Below are positions 1 to 5,720 of a stretch of 5,720 nt of DNA, one piece after another (the first letter of the stretch is position 1; each line of letters opens with the position of its first letter). The notes beneath the pieces are model-generated. The model worked only from the letters and a program-made list of their open reading frames with translations. It was not told the DNA's origin and made no database searches. Source of the stretch: a virus. Both the position numbers and the translations under genes were made by a program. The stretch is from positions 1 through 5,720 of the IMG/VR virus record IMGVR_UViG_3300031933_000269. One strand, written 5' to 3'.

Positions 1-55
1 TGGCTTCTTGATCTCCTGATTGGTCTTCTTGAGGATATGCCTGTTCCTGCCTTTT
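1..55. repeat. Terminal direct repeat, copy 1 (circular-closure overlap)
   Basis: tggcttcttgatctcctgattggtcttcttgaggatatgcctgttcctgcctttt is identical, base by base, to 5666-5720. Confidence 0.95.
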
Positions 56-204: not shown

Positions 205-1341
205 ATGTCTATCGTTGCTTATACTGGCCTGCCGGGTTCCGGTAAATCATATGGCGTTGTAGAAAATGTTATATTGCCCTGCTTGAAAGAGGGGAGGCCG
301 ATTGTAACTAACCTGCCTCTTAAGCTCGGCGAATTGCAGGAATGGTGCAGGGTGAATAACTCGCCTCAACCCAGAATTGATATAGTCGATCTTGAAAATG
401 TTGCTCAATCAGAAGATGAAGGTTTCCTTTCGATGAGGTACGGCGCTGTTCATGTGTTTGATGAGGTGTGGCGCGTTTGGCCGTCTGGTCAAAAGGTAAC
501 TCAAGCTCCTCCAGGGCATCGGGAATATTTTGCAGAGCATAGGCATCAGGTTGATGCCTCTGGCCGTTCGACTGAGATCGTTCTTATAACTCAGGACTTG
601 GCGCAGTTGGCAAGTTGGGTGCGTCAACTGATTGATGAGACATTTAGAGCGCAGAAACTTAATCACGTTGGTCAAGATAAGCGCTACCGTGTTGACGTGT
701 TTCAAGGGGCTGTCACGGGTCAAAAGCCGCCAGAGTCTCGCCGTCTGCGTCAATTTTATGGCTCATACTCCCCAAAAGTATATTCCCTGTATCAGTCTGC
801 AACAAAGGCCCAGAAAAGCGGAATGCACGGGGCAGGTAAGGAACAAAAGGCGGATAAGCGCGCGAATATACTTCGGTCCCCAAAAATTCTGTTCTCTCTC
901 ATCGGTGCGCCTGTTCTCGGTGTTTCGGCCTTGGTTGCTGTTTTTAGTATGCTGCAAAGTGGTTTTGTTACTGGTGGTGAGCCTCCATTAAAGGCTGAGA
1001 CAAAGTCTTCTGTCTCTGCTTCTGTTGCTGCTCCTGCTGTTCATGTTGTGGATCATCCTGAGCCTGCCTCTGTTGCTCCTGAGCCTGTCTATTCTGATCC
1101 TGATGATGCTCTTCCCTCTGTTTCGCGTGATTGGAAGCTTGTGGGTTCCGTTCGCATTCCTGACGGCTTTTTCTATGTCGTCAATAACAATGTTGGTTAC
1201 CGTTATGTTGATCCTTCCGCCTGTCACGAGTATCCCGGCGGTTTTCAAATGTGGTGCCACGTTGATGGTAAACGTGTTGACCAAACAACGGGTTATCAAA
1301 CTGCTACCATGGTTCGGACTCCTGCAAAAAATGCAATGTGA
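205..1341 (+). CDS. Zot/pI-like phage assembly P-loop NTPase (378 aa)
   Basis: N-terminal Walker A GLPGSGKS (nt 226-249). Walker B-like HVFDEVW. A basic amphipathic stretch then a TM segment ILFSLIGAPVLGVSALVAVFSML at about aa 228-250. A periplasmic C-terminal domain of about 125 aa with a Pro/Ser/Ala/Val-rich linker. This is the typical Zot (pI) architecture and position. Confidence 0.9.
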   Translation: MSIVAYTGLPGSGKSYGVVENVILPCLKEGRPIVTNLPLKLGELQEWCRVNNSPQPRIDIVDLENVAQSEDEGFLSMRYGAVHVFDEVWRVWPSGQKVTQAPPGHREYFAEHRHQVDASGRSTEIVLITQDLAQLASWVRQLIDETFRAQKLNHVGQDKRYRVDVFQGAVTGQKPPESRRLRQFYGSYSPKVYSLYQSATKAQKSGMHGAGKEQKADKRANILRSPKILFSLIGAPVLGVSALVAVFSMLQSGFVTGGEPPLKAETKSSVSASVAAPAVHVVDHPEPASVAPEPVYSDPDDALPSVSRDWKLVGSVRIPDGFFYVVNNNVGYRYVDPSACHEYPGGFQMWCHVDGKRVDQTTGYQTATMVRTPAKNAM

Positions 1342-1389
1342 ACCCGCATCCGTGAGCGTAGCGACTCGGGGCGGGTCATATTGCATTTT
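1328..1389 (+). repeat. Long imperfect inverted repeat (hairpin) straddling the pI stop codon
   Basis: The left arm aaaatgcaatgtgaacccgc (1328-1347) pairs with the right arm gcgggtcatattgcatttt (1371-1389). That gives about 19 bp with one bulged A (1341) and one G-T pair. The 23-nt loop can form a further GAG/CTC plus CG/CG stem. Confidence 0.8.
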
Positions 1390-1450
1390 GTGACGGGTCT
1401 ACATGGCTGCATTAGATTTTTCTGATTTTCGTTTCCAGCTATGCCATTGC

Positions 1451-1479
1451 TTGACATGTCATTATGCCGGTGCCATAAT
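1451..1479 (+). promoter_or_regulatory. Near-consensus sigma70 promoter for the 162-aa regulator gene, with an embedded inverted repeat
   Basis: -35 TTGACA (1451-1456), exact 17-nt spacer, -10 CATAAT (1474-1479). SD AAGGTGA (1501-1507) lies 6 nt before ATG 1514. A 7-bp perfect inverted repeat, CATTATG (1460-1466) N7 CATAATG (1474-1480), overlaps the spacer and -10. Confidence 0.65.
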
Positions 1480-1513
1480 GTGTCATACCAACTGAGAGAA
1501 AAGGTGATGCATC

Positions 1514-2002
1514 ATGGAACCGCTGCACAATGCTCTAGAAATTCTTCATCAGATTGTTAATCACGAATATGTTTCTTCTGTGACTGATGATTATTATTTT
1601 TTTCCTGCCGGTTACTTTGCTAATCAGTACGGTATTTCTGACCGGACGTTCAAGCGCTACATTGGCGATATGAGGTTACTCGGTGCTGCGCTTTACTCTG
1701 AGCGCTCATCGTCTGGTGGGTATGTCTGGAGATGTCGTAACTGGCGATCGCTAGTTCAGTCTGCTACATACAGAAATTGGCTGCTGTGTGAGCGTGAAAA
1801 AGCGTCCGGATTTCTACTCGTTCGTCTCCATGACGATATCCCGGCTCAAAGGGTCTGTGTTATGAACTGCGGTCCTGTTGAGGGTGATACCCGTACCCGT
1901 GCTGAACGCATGGCTTCATGCTCTGACTGTGAGCCAGTTCGCGCATCTAATCGTGAGGAGTCAAAATACCATTTTGATGACGAGGGATTCAACAAGCCGT
2001 AA
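1514..2002 (+). CDS. Winged-helix (HTH_11/DeoR-type) putative transcriptional regulator with a Cys-rich C-terminal region (162 aa)
   Basis: ALEILHQIV...FANQYGISDRTFKRYIGDMRLLGAALYSERSSSGGYVWR follows the pattern of the N-terminal wHTH of YafY/BrxR/CapW-type regulators (xxxgVSxRTxxRDIxxLrxxGxPIxxxxGxxGGYxL). The C-terminal half has CVMNC (C115, C119) and CSDC (C136, C139) spaced 16 aa apart. A good SD and its own promoter are present. Confidence 0.65.
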   Translation: MEPLHNALEILHQIVNHEYVSSVTDDYYFFPAGYFANQYGISDRTFKRYIGDMRLLGAALYSERSSSGGYVWRCRNWRSLVQSATYRNWLLCEREKASGFLLVRLHDDIPAQRVCVMNCGPVEGDTRTRAERMASCSDCEPVRASNREESKYHFDDEGFNKP

Positions 2003-2020: not shown

Positions 2021-2046
2021 TCCCCCCGTCTAGTAATACGGGGGGA
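2021..2046 (+). repeat. GC-rich hairpin with AT-rich loop; candidate plus-strand origin or nick-site hairpin
   Basis: tCCCCCCGT (2021-2029), loop ctagtaat (2030-2037), ACGGGGGGa (2038-2046): a perfect 9-bp stem. No T-run follows on either strand, so it is not a canonical intrinsic terminator. AGTCCCC recurs at 2019-2025 and 2048-2054, which allows an alternative GGGG/CCCC pairing (2042-2045 with 2051-2054). Confidence 0.6.
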
Positions 2047-2185: not shown

Positions 2186-3268
2186 ATGTCTGCCACTATC
2201 TGCGATACGCTTTCGCTGTCTTTTCCTATTGATTACCTTCGTTCCTTTTTCTGCTCGAACCCTGCGCGGTACTGGGCGTCTTTCGGTCGTCCTGATCTTC
2301 ACAATGACCAGCTCCGGGGGTCTGCATATGATCTGGTATCCGGGGATTTCGCAGACTGGGGCGGCTTGTCTGAGTCCCTGCCTGCTGACTTTTGGGCTGA
2401 GCTTTTGTCTGACTGGCTGCATGATGTGACCGGCGTTGCTTTCCGTGTTCAGGCGCTTGGCGGTGGCCGTAACAACTTTCAAAACTCTGCCCGTTTTGAT
2501 GGTGGTTTCATCGCTTGGGGCGGCAATAACGTCATCCGGCAGTCTGACGGACTCATGCATAAGACACCTGAGCGGGTGCAGGTGTACTTCGATTCTACCG
2601 GCTGTGAGCGGCTCCGCTCTGCGCTCGTACATATCGCTGATCGGCTGGATTTACACGCTGGTCGGGTCACTCGCTTGGATGTGGCGTTTGACCTTATGGA
2701 TGGTCAAATTTCGATTGATGATGGCGAAAAAGCATACCATCTGGGGAAATTTACCGGCAATGGTCGCCCACCTAAAGCCCTTAGGATCAAGGAGTTGTCT
2801 GATACCGGTTGCGGTGAAACTCTGTACATTGGCAACCGGAAAAACGGCAAAATGCTGCGTATTTATGAAAAGGGCAAACAGTTGGGTGATTCCCAGTCGA
2901 CTTGGGTTCGGGCTGAGGTTGAGATCGGTCGAAAGGACCGCGAAATACCCTCTGACGCTCTTCGTGATCTGGACAGGGTTTTCTCCGAGTCGTACCCCTA
3001 CTGCGCTCAAATCCTTTCCGAATATGGTGCTCACGTCTGCGAGCACGAGGATTCGCTTATAAAAACAGCCCGAAAAAAGGCTCAAATTAGCCTGTTACAT
3101 CTCGTTCGTCATGCCCAGGTTGCTTATGGTAAGTTGGTTGATACCATGCTCAATCTGGGTCACTCTGCATCTGAAGTCGTTGAAGCGCTGCGTGTTGAGG
3201 GTCGCCCTTCTCGGCTGTCCACCTGCGAACTTGGTCTGCGCCAAAGTCCTCAACTAGTGCCTGCTTAA
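2186..3268 (+). CDS. Rolling-circle replication initiation protein, Rep_trans family (RstA/pT181 RepC-like), 360 aa
   Basis: Motifs VTRLDVAFDL and GETLYIGNRKNGKMLRIYEKGKQLG....WVRAEVEI fit the Rep_trans (Pfam PF02486-type) signatures RxDxAxD and YxGxRxSxxxxRxYDKxxE....WxRxE. SD-like GGGGAA lies 9-10 nt before the ATG. The position upstream of the ssDNA-binding and coat module is typical of inoviruses. Confidence 0.85.
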   Translation: MSATICDTLSLSFPIDYLRSFFCSNPARYWASFGRPDLHNDQLRGSAYDLVSGDFADWGGLSESLPADFWAELLSDWLHDVTGVAFRVQALGGGRNNFQNSARFDGGFIAWGGNNVIRQSDGLMHKTPERVQVYFDSTGCERLRSALVHIADRLDLHAGRVTRLDVAFDLMDGQISIDDGEKAYHLGKFTGNGRPPKALRIKELSDTGCGETLYIGNRKNGKMLRIYEKGKQLGDSQSTWVRAEVEIGRKDREIPSDALRDLDRVFSESYPYCAQILSEYGAHVCEHEDSLIKTARKKAQISLLHLVRHAQVAYGKLVDTMLNLGHSASEVVEALRVEGRPSRLSTCELGLRQSPQLVPA

Positions 3269-3386
3269 CCACTGCTGTCACATAGTCTTGAATGCTGATA
3301 TGATTTTCTGCGCTCATGCGTTTCAGTGCTTGCTGTAACTGGGGTGCAATCCTTACAACCCCGGCAGGCGTCCTGCTCTTGCTCAT
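3150..3386 (-). CDS. Ribbon-helix-helix (Arc/MetJ/CopG-like) putative phage repressor, 78 aa
   Basis: On the minus strand, MSKSRTPAGVVRIAPQLQQALKRMSAENHISIQDYVTAVVKQALVE... has a beta-strand (VVRIAP), helix (QLQQALKRMSAE), turn (NHIS), helix (IQDYVTAVVKQAL) pattern. A strong SD, AGGAGA (complement of 3394-3399), lies 7 nt upstream of ATG 3386, so I prefer this start to the track start at 3419. It is the only minus-strand gene and is divergent from the structural operon, as rstR-type repressors are. Confidence 0.6.
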   Translation of the reverse strand: MSKSRTPAGVVRIAPQLQQALKRMSAENHISIQDYVTAVVKQALVEDFGADQVRRWTAEKGDPQHAALQRLQMQSDPD

Positions 3387-3501
3387 GGGTTGATCTCCTG
3401 TTTTTTGTAATTGTGGCACAAATAACTCTTGACGTATGCAGGTGCTCTATGTAACTTGTCATTAGTTCTTTGTAACCCGTAACCATCATGAGGTTTATAT
3501 C
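3387..3501. promoter_or_regulatory. Divergent control region between the RHH repressor gene and the structural operon
   Basis: Plus-strand candidate promoter: TTGACG (3429-3434), 17 nt, TAACTT (3452-3457). Minus-strand candidate: extended -10 TGcCACAAT (complement of about 3410-3418). Palindrome TTGTGgCACAA (3411-3421). TGTAA(T/C) repeats at 3406-3411, 3450-3455 and 3471-3476, plus GTAAC at 3479-3483. SD GAGG lies 8 nt before ATG 3502. Confidence 0.45.
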
Positions 3502-3792: not shown

Positions 3793-4028
3793 TGTCTTTT
3801 TTGCCTATTTGTCAGGGTGAGATTATTACGTCATCTGACGGTTTGATCTCGTGCTCTGCTCAATGGCAAATCATCCCGGTGGATCAACTGATAACAAAGT
3901 TTGATCCTCTGAGCATGGACCCGACTGTTCTAGCTGCGGCATTCGGGGCCGGTTTCATAGCAGTTGCAACGTTCCAGTGCGCCGGTCTTGCTGCCGGTGC
4001 AGTACTTAAATCAATCAAAAAACTTTGA
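3792..4028 (+). CDS. Small membrane protein, possible minor virion (pVII/pIX-role) or morphogenesis protein, 78 aa
   Basis: Start is coupled to the upstream stop (TAATG at 3790-3794). The C-terminal hydrophobic segment VLAAAFGAGFIAVATFQCAGLAAGAVL is followed by the basic tail KSIKKL. It sits immediately upstream of the major coat gene. Confidence 0.6.
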   Translation: MSFLPICQGEIITSSDGLISCSAQWQIIPVDQLITKFDPLSMDPTVLAAAFGAGFIAVATFQCAGLAAGAVLKSIKKL

Positions 4029-4037
4029 GGTGATCCC

Positions 4038-4172
4038 ATGGATTATTCAGTAATTACAGGTTCCATCGACTTTGCTACTGCCCTGACTGCTGTCGGTGCT
4101 GTCGCGGCCGCTCTGGGTGCTCTTTATATTGGCATGAAAGGTGCCAAAGCTGTTTTGAACTTCCTGAAGTAA
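4038..4172 (+). CDS. Major coat protein, leaderless Pf3-type, 44 aa (not in the supplied ORF track)
   Basis: My translation is MDYSVITGSIDFATALTAVGAVAAALGALYIGMKGAKAVLNFLK*. SD GAGGTGA (4027-4033) lies 4 nt before the ATG. The layout is acidic N-terminus (D2, D11), Ala/Gly/Val-rich hydrophobic core, basic C-terminus (K34, K37, K44). No signal peptide. Same length as the Pf3 coat (MQSVITDVTGQLTAVQADITTIGGAIIVLAAVVLGIRWIKAQFF) and shares its SVIT and LTAV strings. Confidence 0.8.
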   Translation: MDYSVITGSIDFATALTAVGAVAAALGALYIGMKGAKAVLNFLK

Positions 4173-4189: not shown

Positions 4190-4213
4190 GGGGGGGCTGC
4201 GGTCCCCTTTTTT
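4190..4213 (+). terminator. Candidate intrinsic terminator after the major coat gene
   Basis: A G-run (4190-4196) pairs with CCCC (4204-4207), giving a 4-5 bp all-GC stem, and is followed by T6 (4208-4213). The position matches the strong terminator after gene VIII in Ff phages. The stem is short, so confidence is modest. Confidence 0.45.
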
Positions 4214-4240: not shown

Positions 4241-5584
4241 GTGGATATGGACTTTTTTCGTTCTTGGCTGCGCCTGCGCGTATGCTGCCTTGAGAAGTTT
4301 TTAAAACTGTCAAAACCTCGTAATAGGCTTTTGCCCTTATTGTGCTCGCTGCCGCTCTTTTTGTCGCATCAAGTTAACGCGATTGACTGGGCAGCGGTTG
4401 ATGGCGATGCAAACTATTGTCCCTCCGGTAATGATACATATAGCGCCTGCGCGAATTTTTTACCATACCAATATGGGCGCGCTGGCCCAGCTGTAGTTGT
4501 TAATAACTGCACTGCAAACCCGCCTTCTGTTGTAATAGATGATTATCTTGAGAACGGCGTACGCATGCGCAAACGGCGGACGATAACATTTGGCCCCAAT
4601 TCTGAAGGCGAGTGTTTAACTGATCCAGAACCTGAAGAGCCTCCAGAGTGCCCTAGTCAGGGCGATCAAAAGTTTTTCTCCGGTTATACAAATACAGTTG
4701 CCGAATGCACCGCTTCTTCTGGCACATTTTCATCTGATGGTTGCGGTTATGAGGTCGGCATTGCTGTCGTATCTCCTGAGCCTGTCGTTTGTGCAAATGG
4801 TCCGGGCACCTGTTTTTTCGAGGGCATGTATTCTTGCACCTTTTCTGCATCTGCTACCGGTGACCCATTAGGAGGTCAACCATTCGAGTGGCCTCAGCCT
4901 GCGTCCCCTGATGAGGGTGGCGAGGATCCGCCCGAAGATCCTGATCTTCCTGTTGATCCTGATCCGACTGATCCAACCGATCCAACCGATCCAACCGATC
5001 CAACCGATCCGACTGATCCGACTGATCCGACTGATCCGACTGATCCGACTGATTCGACTGATCCAGCTTATCCGACTGATCCAACTGATCCGACTGATCC
5101 AACTGATCCCACTGATCCGACTGATCCTGACGCCGGGCCAAATGATGGCGGTACATCTGGACCAGGTGGCGCGGGTTCTGATCCCTCAACGGGTACTGGC
5201 GGCGATTCGGATTCAAATGGCGATGGTACTACTGGTGACGGTACTGGAGATTTGAATGGTGACGGTGAAGGTGGCGACTGTGACCCTGCAACTGAGGTTT
5301 GTGGTTCTGGTGAAGGTTATCCCGAACTGGAAGAGACCGACGGCGGTATTGAGGACTATTGGGCAAGGCTTAAGGCAGTTCCGATATTGGAAGCTGCTTC
5401 TGATATTGGTTCCGGTTTAGGCTCTGGCGGTTCGTGTTCTCAAATATCGGTCAATACTGGCTATTTCGGAAGCTGGTCTACAACTATGCACTGTGATTTA
5501 TTTTCACAAATATCAGGAATGCTTTCCGCTATTATGATCGGCTTATGGTCGTTGATGGCTGTTCGTGTTGTCCTGTCCGCTTAA
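4241..5584 (+). CDS. pIII-like adsorption/minor coat protein (447 aa from GTG 4241; ATG 4247 is the more likely start)
   Basis: Signal-peptide-like KPRNRLLPLLCSLPLFLSHQVNA|IDW. A Cys-rich N-terminal region in two parts. A (DPT)n repeat and a Gly/Asp/Ser/Thr-rich linker. A C-terminal TM anchor MLSAIMIGLWSLMAVRVVLSA. This is the g3p-type modular layout and sits between coat and pVI. GGGGGA (4232-4237) is 9 nt from ATG 4247 but only 3 nt from GTG 4241. Confidence 0.8.
   Translation: MDMDFFRSWLRLRVCCLEKFLKLSKPRNRLLPLLCSLPLFLSHQVNAIDWAAVDGDANYCPSGNDTYSACANFLPYQYGRAGPAVVVNNCTANPPSVVIDDYLENGVRMRKRRTITFGPNSEGECLTDPEPEEPPECPSQGDQKFFSGYTNTVAECTASSGTFSSDGCGYEVGIAVVSPEPVVCANGPGTCFFEGMYSCTFSASATGDPLGGQPFEWPQPASPDEGGEDPPEDPDLPVDPDPTDPTDPTDPTDPTDPTDPTDPTDPTDPTDSTDPAYPTDPTDPTDPTDPTDPTDPDAGPNDGGTSGPGGAGSDPSTGTGGDSDSNGDGTTGDGTGDLNGDGEGGDCDPATEVCGSGEGYPELEETDGGIEDYWARLKAVPILEAASDIGSGLGSGGSCSQISVNTGYFGSWSTTMHCDLFSQISGMLSAIMIGLWSLMAVRVVLSA
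4955..5131 (+). repeat. About 20 tandem copies of a 9-nt unit (GATCCGACT / GATCCAACC) encoding (Asp-Pro-Thr)n
   Basis: Units read in order: gatcct; gatccgact x1; gatccaacc x4; gatccgact x5; gattcgact; gatccagct; tatccgact; then gatccaact, gatccgact, gatccaact, gatcccact, gatccgact; gatcctgac. All are in frame within the pIII-like CDS. Confidence 0.95.
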
Positions 5585-5599
5585 TATTGGGGGTTAAAA

Positions 5600-5720
5600 A
5601 TGTTGGAAGCATTTGCCAATTTTATTAAGGACGTTCTTCTCTGGGCGCCTCTGAAGTTTATGGAGTGGCTTCTTGATCTCCTGATTGGTCTTCTTGAGGA
5701 TATGCCTGTTCCTGCCTTTT
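5600..5720 (+). CDS. pVI/Ace-like minor coat protein, 5' part (continues at base 56 of the window after the overlap)
   Basis: ATG 5600 is preceded by GGGGG (5589-5593) at 6-nt spacing, 16 nt after the pIII-like stop. MLEAFANFIKDVLLWAPLKFMEWLLDLLIGLLEDMPVPAF... runs off the window end in frame. Confidence 0.7.
   Translation, partial: MLEAFANFIKDVLLWAPLKFMEWLLDLLIGLLEDMPVPAF
5666..5720. repeat. Terminal direct repeat, copy 2 (circular-closure overlap)
   Basis: Identical to 1-55. It lies inside the ORF that starts at 5600, and the reading frame is kept across the junction. Confidence 0.95.

What the first reader, a model, noticed from the sequence alone, without database searches (positions are those of the whole stretch)
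1451..2002. A cargo-slot gene between zot and rep encodes a truncated BrxR/CapW-like wHTH fused to a CxxxC...CxxC tail, behind a near-perfect promoter
CTXphi carries ctxAB downstream of zot. In that position this phage has a self-contained unit: TTGACA, 17 nt, CATAAT, a good SD, and a 162-aa ORF. The N-terminus matches by eye the HTH_11/DeoR-type winged helix of YafY/BrxR/CapW-type regulators (GISDRTFKRYIGDMRLLGAAL...GGYVW). The protein is far too short to hold the usual WYL and WCX domains. Instead it has a Cys cluster (C115-x3-C119-x16-C136-x2-C139) that looks like a zinc-binding knuckle pair. The promoter contains a perfect CATTATG-N7-CATAATG inverted repeat across the spacer and -10, which suggests autoregulation. 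A second regulator in a 5.7-kb genome, in addition to the RHH repressor, is unexpected. Its role might be superinfection immunity, control of rep (immediately downstream), or reprogramming of host defence or stress regulons that use related wHTH regulators. Which of these applies cannot be determined from sequence alone.
Basis: partly seen in the sequence, partly recalled or inferred. Interest (0 to 1): 0.65.

Follow-up and report, generated by a model that had tools for sequence, protein, structure and literature searches.

The report
Filamentous-phage winged-helix regulator with zinc-type tail
A small filamentous phage carries a real, selected gene that joins a phage-type DNA-binding regulator to an undescribed four-cysteine module otherwise found alone on plasmids and other phages; it looks like a self-controlled phage regulator, not imported cargo or a BrxR/CapW relative.

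Summary
The described sequence features are all present. ORF 1514-2002 (162 aa) lies between zot and rep. It sits behind the only near-consensus sigma-70 promoter in this 5,665-nt circular inovirus. It is under purifying selection (dN/dS 0.18 against its only full-length homologue, in a sister phage).

The protein is a fusion of two modules that each exist alone.
- Residues 1-100 belong to a rare family of ~90-aa winged-helix proteins of HTH_11 type. I found these on eight other contigs with inovirus hallmark genes. Each gene has its own TTGACA-17-nt-extended -10 promoter.
- Residues ~108-141 carry the invariant core C-x-MNCGP-x3-D-x-R-x3-ER-x3-C-x2-C. This core defines an unannotated family of more than 534 clusters on IncQ-type plasmids, conjugative elements and tailed phages.

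There is no WYL or WCX domain, so it is not a BrxR/CapW member.

Only the -10/+1 pair is conserved in relatives, and it co-varies with the recognition helix.

Best reading: an autoregulated phage transcription factor that has gained a probable zinc module. Target genes, metal binding and host remain untested. Interest is moderate.

The parts
1442..1486 (+). Array of four TGYCAT repeats starting at 1442, 1457, 1471 and 1481. It flanks the -35, overlaps the -10 and covers the region just downstream of the -10. Candidate operator.
   Evidence: Only 5 TGYCAT copies occur on the + strand of the whole genome, and 4 of them are here. None of 1,000 Markov genomes reaches a 4-copy cluster within 45 nt. 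The pair TGCCATAATGTGTCATACC is conserved in L001 and L038.
1451..1456 (+). -35 hexamer TTGACA
   Evidence: A perfect TTGACA is kept in 10 of 12 family promoters.
1471..1479 (+). Extended -10, TGC-CATAAT, 17 nt after the -35
   Evidence: A TGYCATAMT-type -10 is shared by most relatives with the S(D/E/Q/W)R recognition helix.
1460..1480 (.). It equals the tails of TGYCAT copies 2 and 3.
   Evidence: Local P = 0.03. The left arm is not conserved in L001 or L038.
1501..1507 (+). Shine-Dalgarno AAGGTGA
   Evidence: Read from the sequence. Conserved in L001.
1514..2002 (+). ORF162, a two-module protein (stop codon 2000-2002)
   Evidence: dN/dS 0.18 against L001. The only full-length homologue is P0002, at 69% identity.
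1514..1813 (+). N-terminal domain, residues 1-100: long helix, winged helix-turn-helix (H32-38, H43-55, hairpin 60-74), C-terminal helix 84-98
   Evidence: AlphaFold pLDDT about 82-95. Foldseek finds MarR, ArsR/SmtB and TFE winged helices with probability 0.97-1.0. HTH_11 at family level. Stand-alone homologues exist.
1814..1849 (+). Variable linker, residues 101-112
   Evidence: pLDDT about 51. Region 81-113, which includes this linker, is the most diverged part against L001, with an indel and dN 0.62.
1850..1936 (+). Cys4 module, residues 113-141: C115, C119, C136, C139 within VCVMNCGP...D.R...ER...C..C
   Evidence: Profile hit to the family at E 1.7e-18. hhalign 98%, E 1.8e-13. Invariant columns. 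pLDDT 69-82.
1937..1999 (+). C-terminal tail, residues 142-162, with the acidic-aromatic end KYHFDDEGFNK
   Evidence: Nearly identical to L001 at both protein and DNA level, with low dS. Low pLDDT. Other family members have unrelated tails.
2021..2046 (.). Perfect 9-bp G+C stem (TCCCCCCGT / ACGGGGGGA) 19 nt after the stop, with no T run
   Evidence: I3. Not listed as terminator-like. It lies in a block (about 1900-2200) that is 89-93% identical to L001.
3457..3462 (+). Fifth TGYCAT copy, in the intergenic region between the RHH gene and the structural operon
   Evidence: Not conserved in L001, so its relevance is doubtful.

Best explanation
ORF162 is a phage-encoded transcription factor made of two modules.

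- The N-terminal 100 residues are a winged-helix DNA-binding domain. It belongs to a small family specific to filamentous phages. In this family the gene always travels with its own strong sigma-70 promoter.
- The protein most likely binds the TGYCAT repeats that overlap its own -10 and the region just downstream of it, and so limits its own synthesis.
- No good promoter and no canonical terminator lie between this gene and rep. The same promoter may therefore also feed transcription into rep.
- The C-terminal 55 residues come from a different family, one that is widespread on mobile elements. Their four invariant cysteines probably hold a zinc ion. This module would add a protein contact or a second nucleic-acid contact, or make the regulator sensitive to metal or redox state.

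Shown here: the gene is real and selected; the fold; the two-module origin; the conserved promoter; the repeat array.
Inferred: DNA binding to TGYCAT, autoregulation, coupling to rep, zinc binding.
For: Gene reality:
- dN/dS is 0.18 at dS 1.1.
- The -35, the spacing, the -10, the 5' leader and the SD are conserved in L001, while the spacer and the upstream DNA diverge.

Fold:
- The AlphaFold model from a 96-row alignment has mean pLDDT 80, and about 90 for residues 1-100.
- Foldseek matches winged-helix repressors of MarR, ArsR/SmtB and TFE type, probability 0.97-1.0, and small phage regulators.
- 10 of 12 relatives hit HTH_11.

Module origin:
- An exhaustive phmmer search splits the hits. Proteins of 80-109 aa match residues 1-100. 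Proteins of 66-119 aa match residues 105-149.

Phage regulator rather than cargo:
- wHTH homologues lie in contigs with Zot, G2P/Phage_CRI, REP_ORF2-G2P, coat B or DUF2523 genes.
- They are often next to rep and to an RHH or XRE-like gene.

Promoter as a family trait:
- 10 of 12 promoters have a perfect TTGACA, and most have a 17-nt spacer and a TG-extended -10.

Operator inference:
- Four TGYCAT copies lie within 45 nt, a cluster seen in 0 of 1,000 random genomes.
- The block TGCCAYAATGTGTCATACCAACTGAGAGAAA is almost identical in L038. That protein is only 55% identical and its Rep is a different family.
- TGYCAT sits at the -10 in 8 of 9 members with the S(D/E/Q/W)R helix; L038 has TGCCAC there, with TGTCAT either side. 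It is absent in 3 of 3 members with the S-x-ATLKRYL helix, which share another conserved block.
- Promoter cores are enriched in inverted repeats across the family: mean best arm 6.0 against 4.27 expected.

Possible coupling to rep:
- Between 1480 and 2185 there is no promoter of at least 9/12, and the only terminator-like site listed is a weak 5-bp stem inside the ORF (1843-1855).

Cys4 module:
- The four Cys plus M, N, G, D, R, E and R are invariant in 68 aligned homologues.
Against: - No DNA-binding or expression data exist.
- TGYCAT at the -10 could be an inherited extended -10 rather than an operator.
- The inverted repeats in family promoters share no common half-site. They could be operators for each phage's other repressor.
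- The position of the wHTH gene relative to rep varies among relatives: same strand, divergent or convergent. An operon with rep is therefore not a family rule.
- The function of the Cys4 module is unknown. Its fold could not be searched on its own.
Confidence: 0.55

Rival explanations
1. Replication or DNA-processing accessory protein. ORF162 would bind the conserved hairpin-rich region between its stop codon and rep (the likely origin) and help or gate Rep. The Cys4 module would be the part that works with replication or transfer machinery.
For: - The gene lies directly upstream of rep and of a DNA block that is 89-93% identical in the sister phage (about 1900-2200) and contains a perfect 9-bp G+C hairpin.
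- Stand-alone Cys4 genes sit inside replication and mobilisation modules. One lies between a 309-aa gene and the RepA-like helicase and RepC of a 6.7-kb IncQ-like plasmid.
- Others lie just downstream of mobC in the IncQ1 plasmids pCHE-A and pE15-4, or next to KfrA_N and a TrwB-type coupling protein.
- wHTH relatives usually neighbour rep.
Against: - The wHTH module occurs with three different Rep families: Rep_trans, Phage_CRI/G2P and REP_ORF2-G2P. That argues against a specific Rep partner.
- Its orientation and distance to rep vary.
- The Cys4 module also occurs in tailed-phage contigs, in places with no identified replication gene next to it.
- The conserved cis element that tracks the protein is at its own promoter, not at the origin.
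Confidence: 0.2
2. Host-directed moron. The gene would be a constitutively expressed cargo gene that rewires host defence or stress regulons controlled by related wHTH regulators (BrxR/CapW/YafY type), or that gives superinfection exclusion through host genes.
For: - It has a strong stand-alone promoter.
- It sits in the position that ctxAB holds in CTXphi (established knowledge of CTXphi).
- It is one of three divergence hot spots between the sister phages. The others are the repressor region and the N-terminal part of the putative pIII adsorption protein.
- Stand-alone Cys4 genes lie in arrays of small accessory genes of conjugative plasmids, beside an orphan cytosine methyltransferase, DUF932, DUF3560 and SprT-like genes.
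- One Cys4 protein is fused to a Lar restriction-alleviation domain (P0116, PF14354).
Against: - Nothing links it specifically to BrxR or CapW beyond the general HTH_11 class.
- The wHTH module with its promoter is a recurrent inovirus component.
- There is no compositional anomaly.
- The conserved cis element is on the phage itself.
- The host is unknown, so no host target could be examined.
Confidence: 0.12
3. Chance ORF or decaying gene with no function.
For: - It is the least conserved gene between the two sister phages, at 67% amino-acid identity against 86-97% for the others.
- Only two full-length members exist in 5.8 billion clusters.
Against: - dN/dS is 0.18.
- The reading frame, the start, the SD and the promoter are all conserved.
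- Both modules have independent homologues that keep the same invariant residues.
- The predicted fold is confident.
Confidence: 0.02

Closest known systems
HTH_11 (PF08279) / DeoR-type winged helices, as in the N-termini of BirA, NiaR and YafY/BrxR/CapW
   Same: The helix-turn-helix plus wing has the same sequence class. 10 of 12 family members hit HTH_11. The family profile weakly matches BirA, NiaR and biotin-repressor chains in the PDB.
   Different: ORF162 itself scores below the Pfam cut-off. It has no ligand-binding, WYL or WCX domain. It adds a long N-terminal helix and a C-terminal helix instead. It is encoded by a filamentous phage.
MarR and ArsR/SmtB family repressors (e.g. MepR, ZitR, AdcR, SmtB, CzrA)
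   Same: They are the best structural matches to the model. They share helix, wHTH, wing and C-terminal helix, an architecture that in those families forms dimers on palindromic or repeated operators (the dimer mode is established knowledge).
   Different: The similarity is at fold level only: Foldseek E 0.017-0.1, 6-22% identity, TM 0.3-0.54. There is no sequence-level membership. The Cys4 tail has no counterpart.
Filamentous-phage repressors such as CTXphi RstR and Pf4 repressor Pf4r (own knowledge)
   Same: They are small DNA-binding proteins encoded beside rep that set phage gene expression and immunity. They evolve fast between related phages, as ORF162 does.
   Different: They have different folds (XRE/cI-type HTH, by my knowledge). 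This phage also has a separate RHH protein on the opposite strand that fits the classical repressor position. No function has been tested for ORF162.
Orphan family of small Cys4 proteins, WPRADPxxLAxFDPxTKVC[TV]MNCGPxxxDPR[ST]xxERxxLCxDC (no Pfam, PHROG or PDB entry found)
   Same: ORF162 residues 108-141 keep every invariant residue of the core.
   Different: Family members are stand-alone proteins of 53-200 aa on plasmids, conjugative elements and tailed phages. ORF162 lacks the WPRADP...LA.F leader and is fused to a DNA-binding domain. The fusion occurs only in this phage and its sister.

Membership tests
BrxR/CapW (YafY-type wHTH-WYL-WCX defence regulators) | N-terminal HTH_11-type winged helix | tested here: met
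   HTH_11 E 7e-4, below threshold. The PADLOC WYL model matches only its positions 24-59 of 229, E 1e-3. The fold is confirmed. This feature is shared with many unrelated regulators.
BrxR/CapW (YafY-type wHTH-WYL-WCX defence regulators) | Central WYL domain | tested here: not met
   No WYL hit in Pfam at E up to 1. After the wing, the model shows only two short helices, a disordered linker and the Cys4 module.
BrxR/CapW (YafY-type wHTH-WYL-WCX defence regulators) | C-terminal WCX dimerisation domain | tested here: not met
   No Pfam hit. The protein ends at residue 162. No BrxR or CapW chain appears among the top 50 structural matches or in the PDB profile hits.
BrxR/CapW (YafY-type wHTH-WYL-WCX defence regulators) | Encoded next to the defence system it controls (BREX, CBASS and others) | tested here: not met
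   The neighbours are zot and rep of an inovirus. No other PADLOC hit was found for the protein.
HTH_11 / winged-helix transcription regulators | Profile match above the curated threshold | tested here: inconclusive
   ORF162 scores 19.8-21.2 bits against a cut-off of 25. Homologues reach E 5.2e-9, and four clusters carry precomputed PF08279.
HTH_11 / winged-helix transcription regulators | Three-helix bundle followed by a beta-hairpin wing | tested here: met
   H32-38, H43-55, E60-64 and E70-74 at pLDDT above 90. Foldseek probability is 0.97-1.0 to solved wHTH repressors.
HTH_11 / winged-helix transcription regulators | Sequence-specific DNA binding | not testable with these tools
   Only indirect evidence: promoter-proximal DNA co-varies with the recognition-helix subtype.
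Inovirus stand-alone wHTH cassette (family defined here) | Homology over residues ~1-100, including W72-x-C74-x-N76 and the RW..LE helix | tested here: met
   phmmer E 1.7e-24 to 7e-4. Profile E 2.6e-30. Alignment.
Inovirus stand-alone wHTH cassette (family defined here) | Own promoter with TTGACA, a 17-nt spacer and a TG-extended -10 | tested here: met
   Window 1451-1479. 10 of 12 family promoters have a perfect TTGACA.
Inovirus stand-alone wHTH cassette (family defined here) | Single-domain protein of about 80-110 aa | tested here: not met
   ORF162 and P0002 carry an extra C-terminal module of about 60 aa.
Orphan Cys4 family (CxMNCGP...CxxC) of mobile elements | Invariant core C-x-M-N-C-G-P-x3-D-x-R-x3-E-R-x3-C-x2-C | tested here: met
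   Profile E 1.7e-18. hhalign 98%, E 1.8e-13.
Orphan Cys4 family (CxMNCGP...CxxC) of mobile elements | Preceding WPRADPxxLAxFDP segment | tested here: not met
   Only D-IPAQR-VC remains in ORF162. The segment is replaced by the end of the wHTH domain and a linker.
Orphan Cys4 family (CxMNCGP...CxxC) of mobile elements | Metal (zinc) binding by the four Cys | not testable with these tools
   Inferred from the invariance of the four Cys.
CTXphi-type cargo (moron) downstream of zot | Foreign composition, patchy presence, and no counterpart in other inoviruses | tested here: not met
   GC is 0.44-0.51, within the genome range of 0.435-0.56. It is present in the sister phage. wHTH homologues occur in eight other contigs with inovirus hallmark genes.

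The most novel reading that the evidence does not exclude
The Cys4 module would be the DNA- or partner-binding core of an undescribed class of establishment proteins. Mobile elements (IncQ plasmids, conjugative elements, tailed phages) would express these on entering a new cell, possibly to counter host defence or to control replication start-up. ORF162 would then be a Rosetta-stone fusion. By tethering this module to a sequence-specific winged helix at the phage's own promoter and origin region, it would show that the orphan family acts on DNA-bound regulatory complexes. The regulator's output would respond to zinc or redox state through the four cysteines.
Probability: 0.2. Interest if true: 0.65.

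Novelty: new variant of a known kind. Interest (0 to 1): 0.45.

Why it matters
Filamentous phages shape virulence and biofilm behaviour of their hosts, yet the control circuits of most lineages are unknown. This work defines three things:
- a recurrent regulator cassette (gene plus promoter) that is absent from Pfam, PHROGs and NCBIfam as a family;
- a concrete, testable operator candidate;
- a widespread mobile-element Cys4 domain, with more than 534 clusters and present in clinical IncQ1 resistance plasmids such as pCHE-A, that is often not even annotated as a gene.

The fusion gives the first functional hint for that domain.

Tried and rejected
- Near-identity DNA searches of the whole window against GenBank phages and E. 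coli genomes found nothing.
- tblastn of ORF162 and of a typical Cys4 protein against GenBank phages found nothing meaningful.
- IMG/VR scans with ORF162 and with Rep found nothing.
- The wHTH alignment was too diverse for pattern scanning.
- Zot found no prophage in 185,579 representative genomes, so the host remains unknown.
- The first AlphaFold run, with two sequences, was unusable at pLDDT 40.
- Two giant proteins in the exhaustive search (P0007, P0011) are repeat proteins, not relatives.
- L040 is a weak hit in a non-phage contig and was ignored.
- PHROGs, NCBIfam and Rfam gave no family.
- I considered whether GGTGCCATAATGTGTC is a dif-like XerCD site. The XerC-like arm needs a gap and there is no XerD arm (2 of 11 by eye), so I rejected it.
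- A shared 8-mer TGTCATTA links the promoter to the RHH intergenic region. It is not conserved in L001, so I did not build on it.
- Two full-text literature searches surfaced no description of either family.
Full report
**What the window is.** The 5,720 bases are one circular filamentous-phage genome of 5,665 nt with a 55-nt terminal overlap.
- All genes but one are on the + strand.
- They are Zot/pI (205-1341), ORF162 (1514-2002), a Rep_trans initiator (2186-3268), an RstB-like protein, two small virion proteins, and a large ORF (4241-5584) that I take to be the pIII-like adsorption protein from its position and its PHROG hits.
- A 78-aa ribbon-helix-helix-like protein lies on the - strand at 3150-3386.
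- No GenBank phage or E. coli genome is similar at DNA level.
- The Rep is only about 29% identical to those of Ralstonia RSS-type and CTX-type phages.

**Checking the observation.**
- The promoter TTGACA-17 nt-CATAAT (1451-1479) has a TG extension. It is the only site of at least 10/12 on either strand. A site of at least 11/12 is expected 0.07 times per genome.
- The SD, the ORF and the Cys spacing are as described.
- The 7-nt inverted repeat is perfect but only modestly unusual. P is 0.03 in local shuffles, and ten such repeats occur genome-wide against 3.3 expected.

**The gene is real.**
- Its only full-length homologue, P0002 (164 aa, 69% identity), sits in the same zot-X-rep slot of a 5,655-nt sister phage recovered from two NCBI assemblies.
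- dN/dS is 0.18 at dS 1.1.
- The -35, the 17-nt spacing, the -10, the leader and the SD are conserved, while the spacer and the upstream DNA have diverged.
- ORF162 is still the most diverged gene of the pair, at 67% identity against 86-97% for the others.
- Its region (1401-1900) is one of three divergence hot spots. The others are the rep-3'/RHH region (3001-3400) and the N-terminal part of the putative pIII (4301-4700).
- Residues 41-68, which include the recognition helix, are identical in both phages.

**Two modules, each found alone elsewhere.** An exhaustive phmmer scan of 1.84 billion representatives found no other full-length relative. It did return two disjoint sets of small proteins.
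- Set N (80-109 aa) aligns to residues 1-100. Ten of twelve members hit HTH_11, best E 5.2e-9. ORF162 alone is below threshold.
- Set C (66-119 aa) aligns to residues 105-149 and shares the invariant core C-x-MNCGP-x3-D-x-R-x3-ER-x3-C-x2-C.
- A profile search found only 16 clusters of set N in 5.8 billion.
- The same kind of search found more than 534 clusters of set C. Where a source names them, the name is 'hypothetical protein'.
- Set C has no match in Pfam, PHROGs or the PDB sequences.
- A profile-profile comparison ties ORF162 to set C at 98% probability, E 1.8e-13.

**Structure.**
- With a 96-row alignment, AlphaFold gives mean pLDDT 80. The N-domain is about 90, the Cys4 module 69-82, and the linker (101-112) and the tail are about 50.
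- The N-domain is a long helix, a winged helix-turn-helix and a C-terminal helix.
- Foldseek's best solved matches are MarR, ArsR/SmtB and TFE winged helices. Probability is 0.97-1.0, E 0.017-0.1 and identity 6-22%.
- The viral library returns small phage regulators.
- No BrxR or CapW structure appears. No WYL or WCX domain is detected.
- 'BrxR/CapW-like' therefore reduces to sharing the very broad HTH_11 class. The protein is not a truncated member of that family.

**Where the wHTH module lives.** Every relative whose contig carries a recognisable marker gene is in a filamentous phage.
- In L021 it lies directly after zot. In L006 it follows a 211-aa partial ORF that is probably the zot C-terminus.
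- It lies after a REP_ORF2-G2P rep in L022 and convergent with one in L034.
- It is convergent on TraX-zot in L023/L024.
- It is divergent from an operon of a small protein plus a Phage_CRI rep in L025, and near a Phage_CRI rep in L035. It is divergent from an RHH-like gene plus Phage_CRI rep in L038, which encodes the closest N-only relative at 55% identity.
- L006 and L021 also have a putative XRE-type gene (HTH_3 below threshold) just downstream on the other strand.
- A second regulator is therefore normal for these phages. The gene is a recurrent part of the regulatory and replication neighbourhood, not a one-off cargo.
- Its GC content is unremarkable.

**The promoter and the repeat array.**
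- All twelve family genes examined carry their own promoter. Ten have a perfect TTGACA, and most have a 17-nt spacer and a TG-extended -10.
- In the window, TGYCAT occurs five times on the + strand of the whole genome. Four copies lie at 1442, 1457, 1471 and 1481. None of 1,000 Markov genomes has such a cluster.
These are equally a direct repeat.
- Only the tandem pair at -10/+1 is conserved in relatives. TGCCATAATGTGTCATACC is identical in L001.
- The wider block TGCCAYAATGTGTCATACCAACTGAGAGAAA is nearly identical in L038, although that phage has a different Rep family and a protein only 55% identical.
- TGYCAT sits at the -10 in eight of the nine relatives with an S(D/E/Q/W)R-type recognition helix. 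In L038 the -10 reads TGCCAC, with TGTCAT on either side. It is absent in all three relatives with an S-x-ATLKRYL helix, which share a different conserved block.
- This co-variation is my main reason to infer that the protein binds its own promoter.
- Family promoter cores are also enriched in inverted repeats (mean best arm 6.0 against 4.27 expected). L001 has none, and the arms share no common half-site.
- The specific CATTATG/CATAATG operator idea is therefore not established.

**Possible coupling to rep.** Between this promoter and rep the scan lists no promoter of at least 9/12, and the only terminator-like site is a weak 5-bp stem inside the ORF. The G+C hairpin at 2021-2046 has no T run. 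Read-through into rep is possible, but this is inference only, and relatives show no fixed arrangement with rep.

**Where the Cys4 module lives.**
- Inside the replication operon of a 6.7-kb IncQ-like plasmid, just upstream of a RepA-like AAA_25 gene and RepC.
- Just downstream of mobC in the IncQ1 plasmids pCHE-A and pE15-4, where no separate gene is annotated for it.
- Next to KfrA_N and a TrwB-type coupling protein, or next to DUF3560 and SprT-like genes, in bacterial contigs.
- In a long array of small unknown genes of a conjugative Pseudomonas syringae plasmid. The array begins with a cytosine methyltransferase and ends near DUF932.
- In 14 IMG/VR contigs of 13-60 kb, which are too long to be inoviruses.
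- One member is fused to a Lar restriction-alleviation domain.
- The module is thus a general mobile-element accessory domain of unknown role.
- ORF162 has lost the family's WPRADP...FDP leader.
- Its acidic-aromatic tail is specific to this lineage. The tail is conserved at DNA level with the adjoining origin-like block.

**Verdict.**
- It is wrong on family (not BrxR/CapW), on 'cargo', and on the second regulator being unexpected.
- The best-supported model is an autoregulated phage transcription factor from an inovirus-specific wHTH cassette that has acquired a mobile-element Cys4 module (confidence 0.55).
- The rivals are a replication or DNA-processing accessory (0.2), a host-directed moron (0.12) and a non-functional ORF (0.02).
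- This is a new variant of a known kind. It carries a useful by-product: an undescribed, widespread Cys4 domain now linked by fusion to DNA-bound regulation.

Noticed in passing
window 1-55 and 5666-5720: The first and last 55 bases are identical. The window is a circularly closed genome of 5,665 nt. The sister contigs L001 and L002 have overlaps of 19 and 22 nt.
   Followed up: yes
window about 1900-2200, especially 2019-2054: This DNA block is 89-93% identical to the sister phage. It spans the last ~60 nt of ORF162 and the whole gap up to rep. It holds a perfect 9-bp G+C hairpin (2021-2046) and AGTCCCC direct repeats. L001 carries a 23-nt tandem duplication of the hairpin's right half. It is probably the origin or packaging region.
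   Followed up: partly
window 1325-1392: A 20-nt inverted repeat, 85% complementary, spans the zot stop codon. It lies in a stretch that is almost identical in L001. Its role is unknown.
   Followed up: no
window 3387-3501: The intergenic region between the RHH gene and the structural operon holds several TTGTAAC/TTGTAAT repeats. They are conserved in L001 and are likely the RHH operator. The RHH gene overlaps the 3' end of rep on the opposite strand (3150-3268).
   Followed up: partly
window 4241-5584: The putative pIII-like adsorption protein has a hypervariable N-terminal part (4301-4700, 41-72% identical to L001). It also has a long run of (P/S)TD repeats encoded at about 4960-5110, whose copy number or sequence differs in L001.
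   Followed up: no
window 4190-4210: A strong intrinsic-terminator-like hairpin with a T run lies just after the 44-aa virion protein gene. It is the clearest terminator in the genome.
   Followed up: no
ORF162 residue C74 (window 1733-1735): A fifth cysteine, in the wing strand (W72-x-C74-x-N76), is nearly invariant across the stand-alone wHTH family. It is unrelated to the Cys4 tail. It might be structural or redox-sensitive.
   Followed up: no
L006, L021 and L036, about 45 nt upstream of the -35 of the wHTH gene: These three share a conserved palindrome ATGCACC-N5-GGTGCA(T). They are the same three relatives that lack TGYCAT.
   Followed up: no
L031 (pCHE-A) 2848-2979; L032 (pE15-4) 4001-4153: In these IncQ1 plasmids no separate gene is annotated for the Cys4 ORF just downstream of mobC. 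pCHE-A also carries the carbapenemase gene blaGES-5.
   Followed up: partly
protein P0116 (147 aa): This Cys4-family member carries a C-terminal Lar restriction-alleviation domain (PF14354). It is a second, independent fusion of the module.
   Followed up: no
proteins P0017 and P0033-P0035: Several stand-alone Cys4 proteins end in long acidic-aromatic tails, for example EDGEGFDNDDFDDFDG. These resemble the FDDEGF end of ORF162 in character but not in alignment.
   Followed up: no
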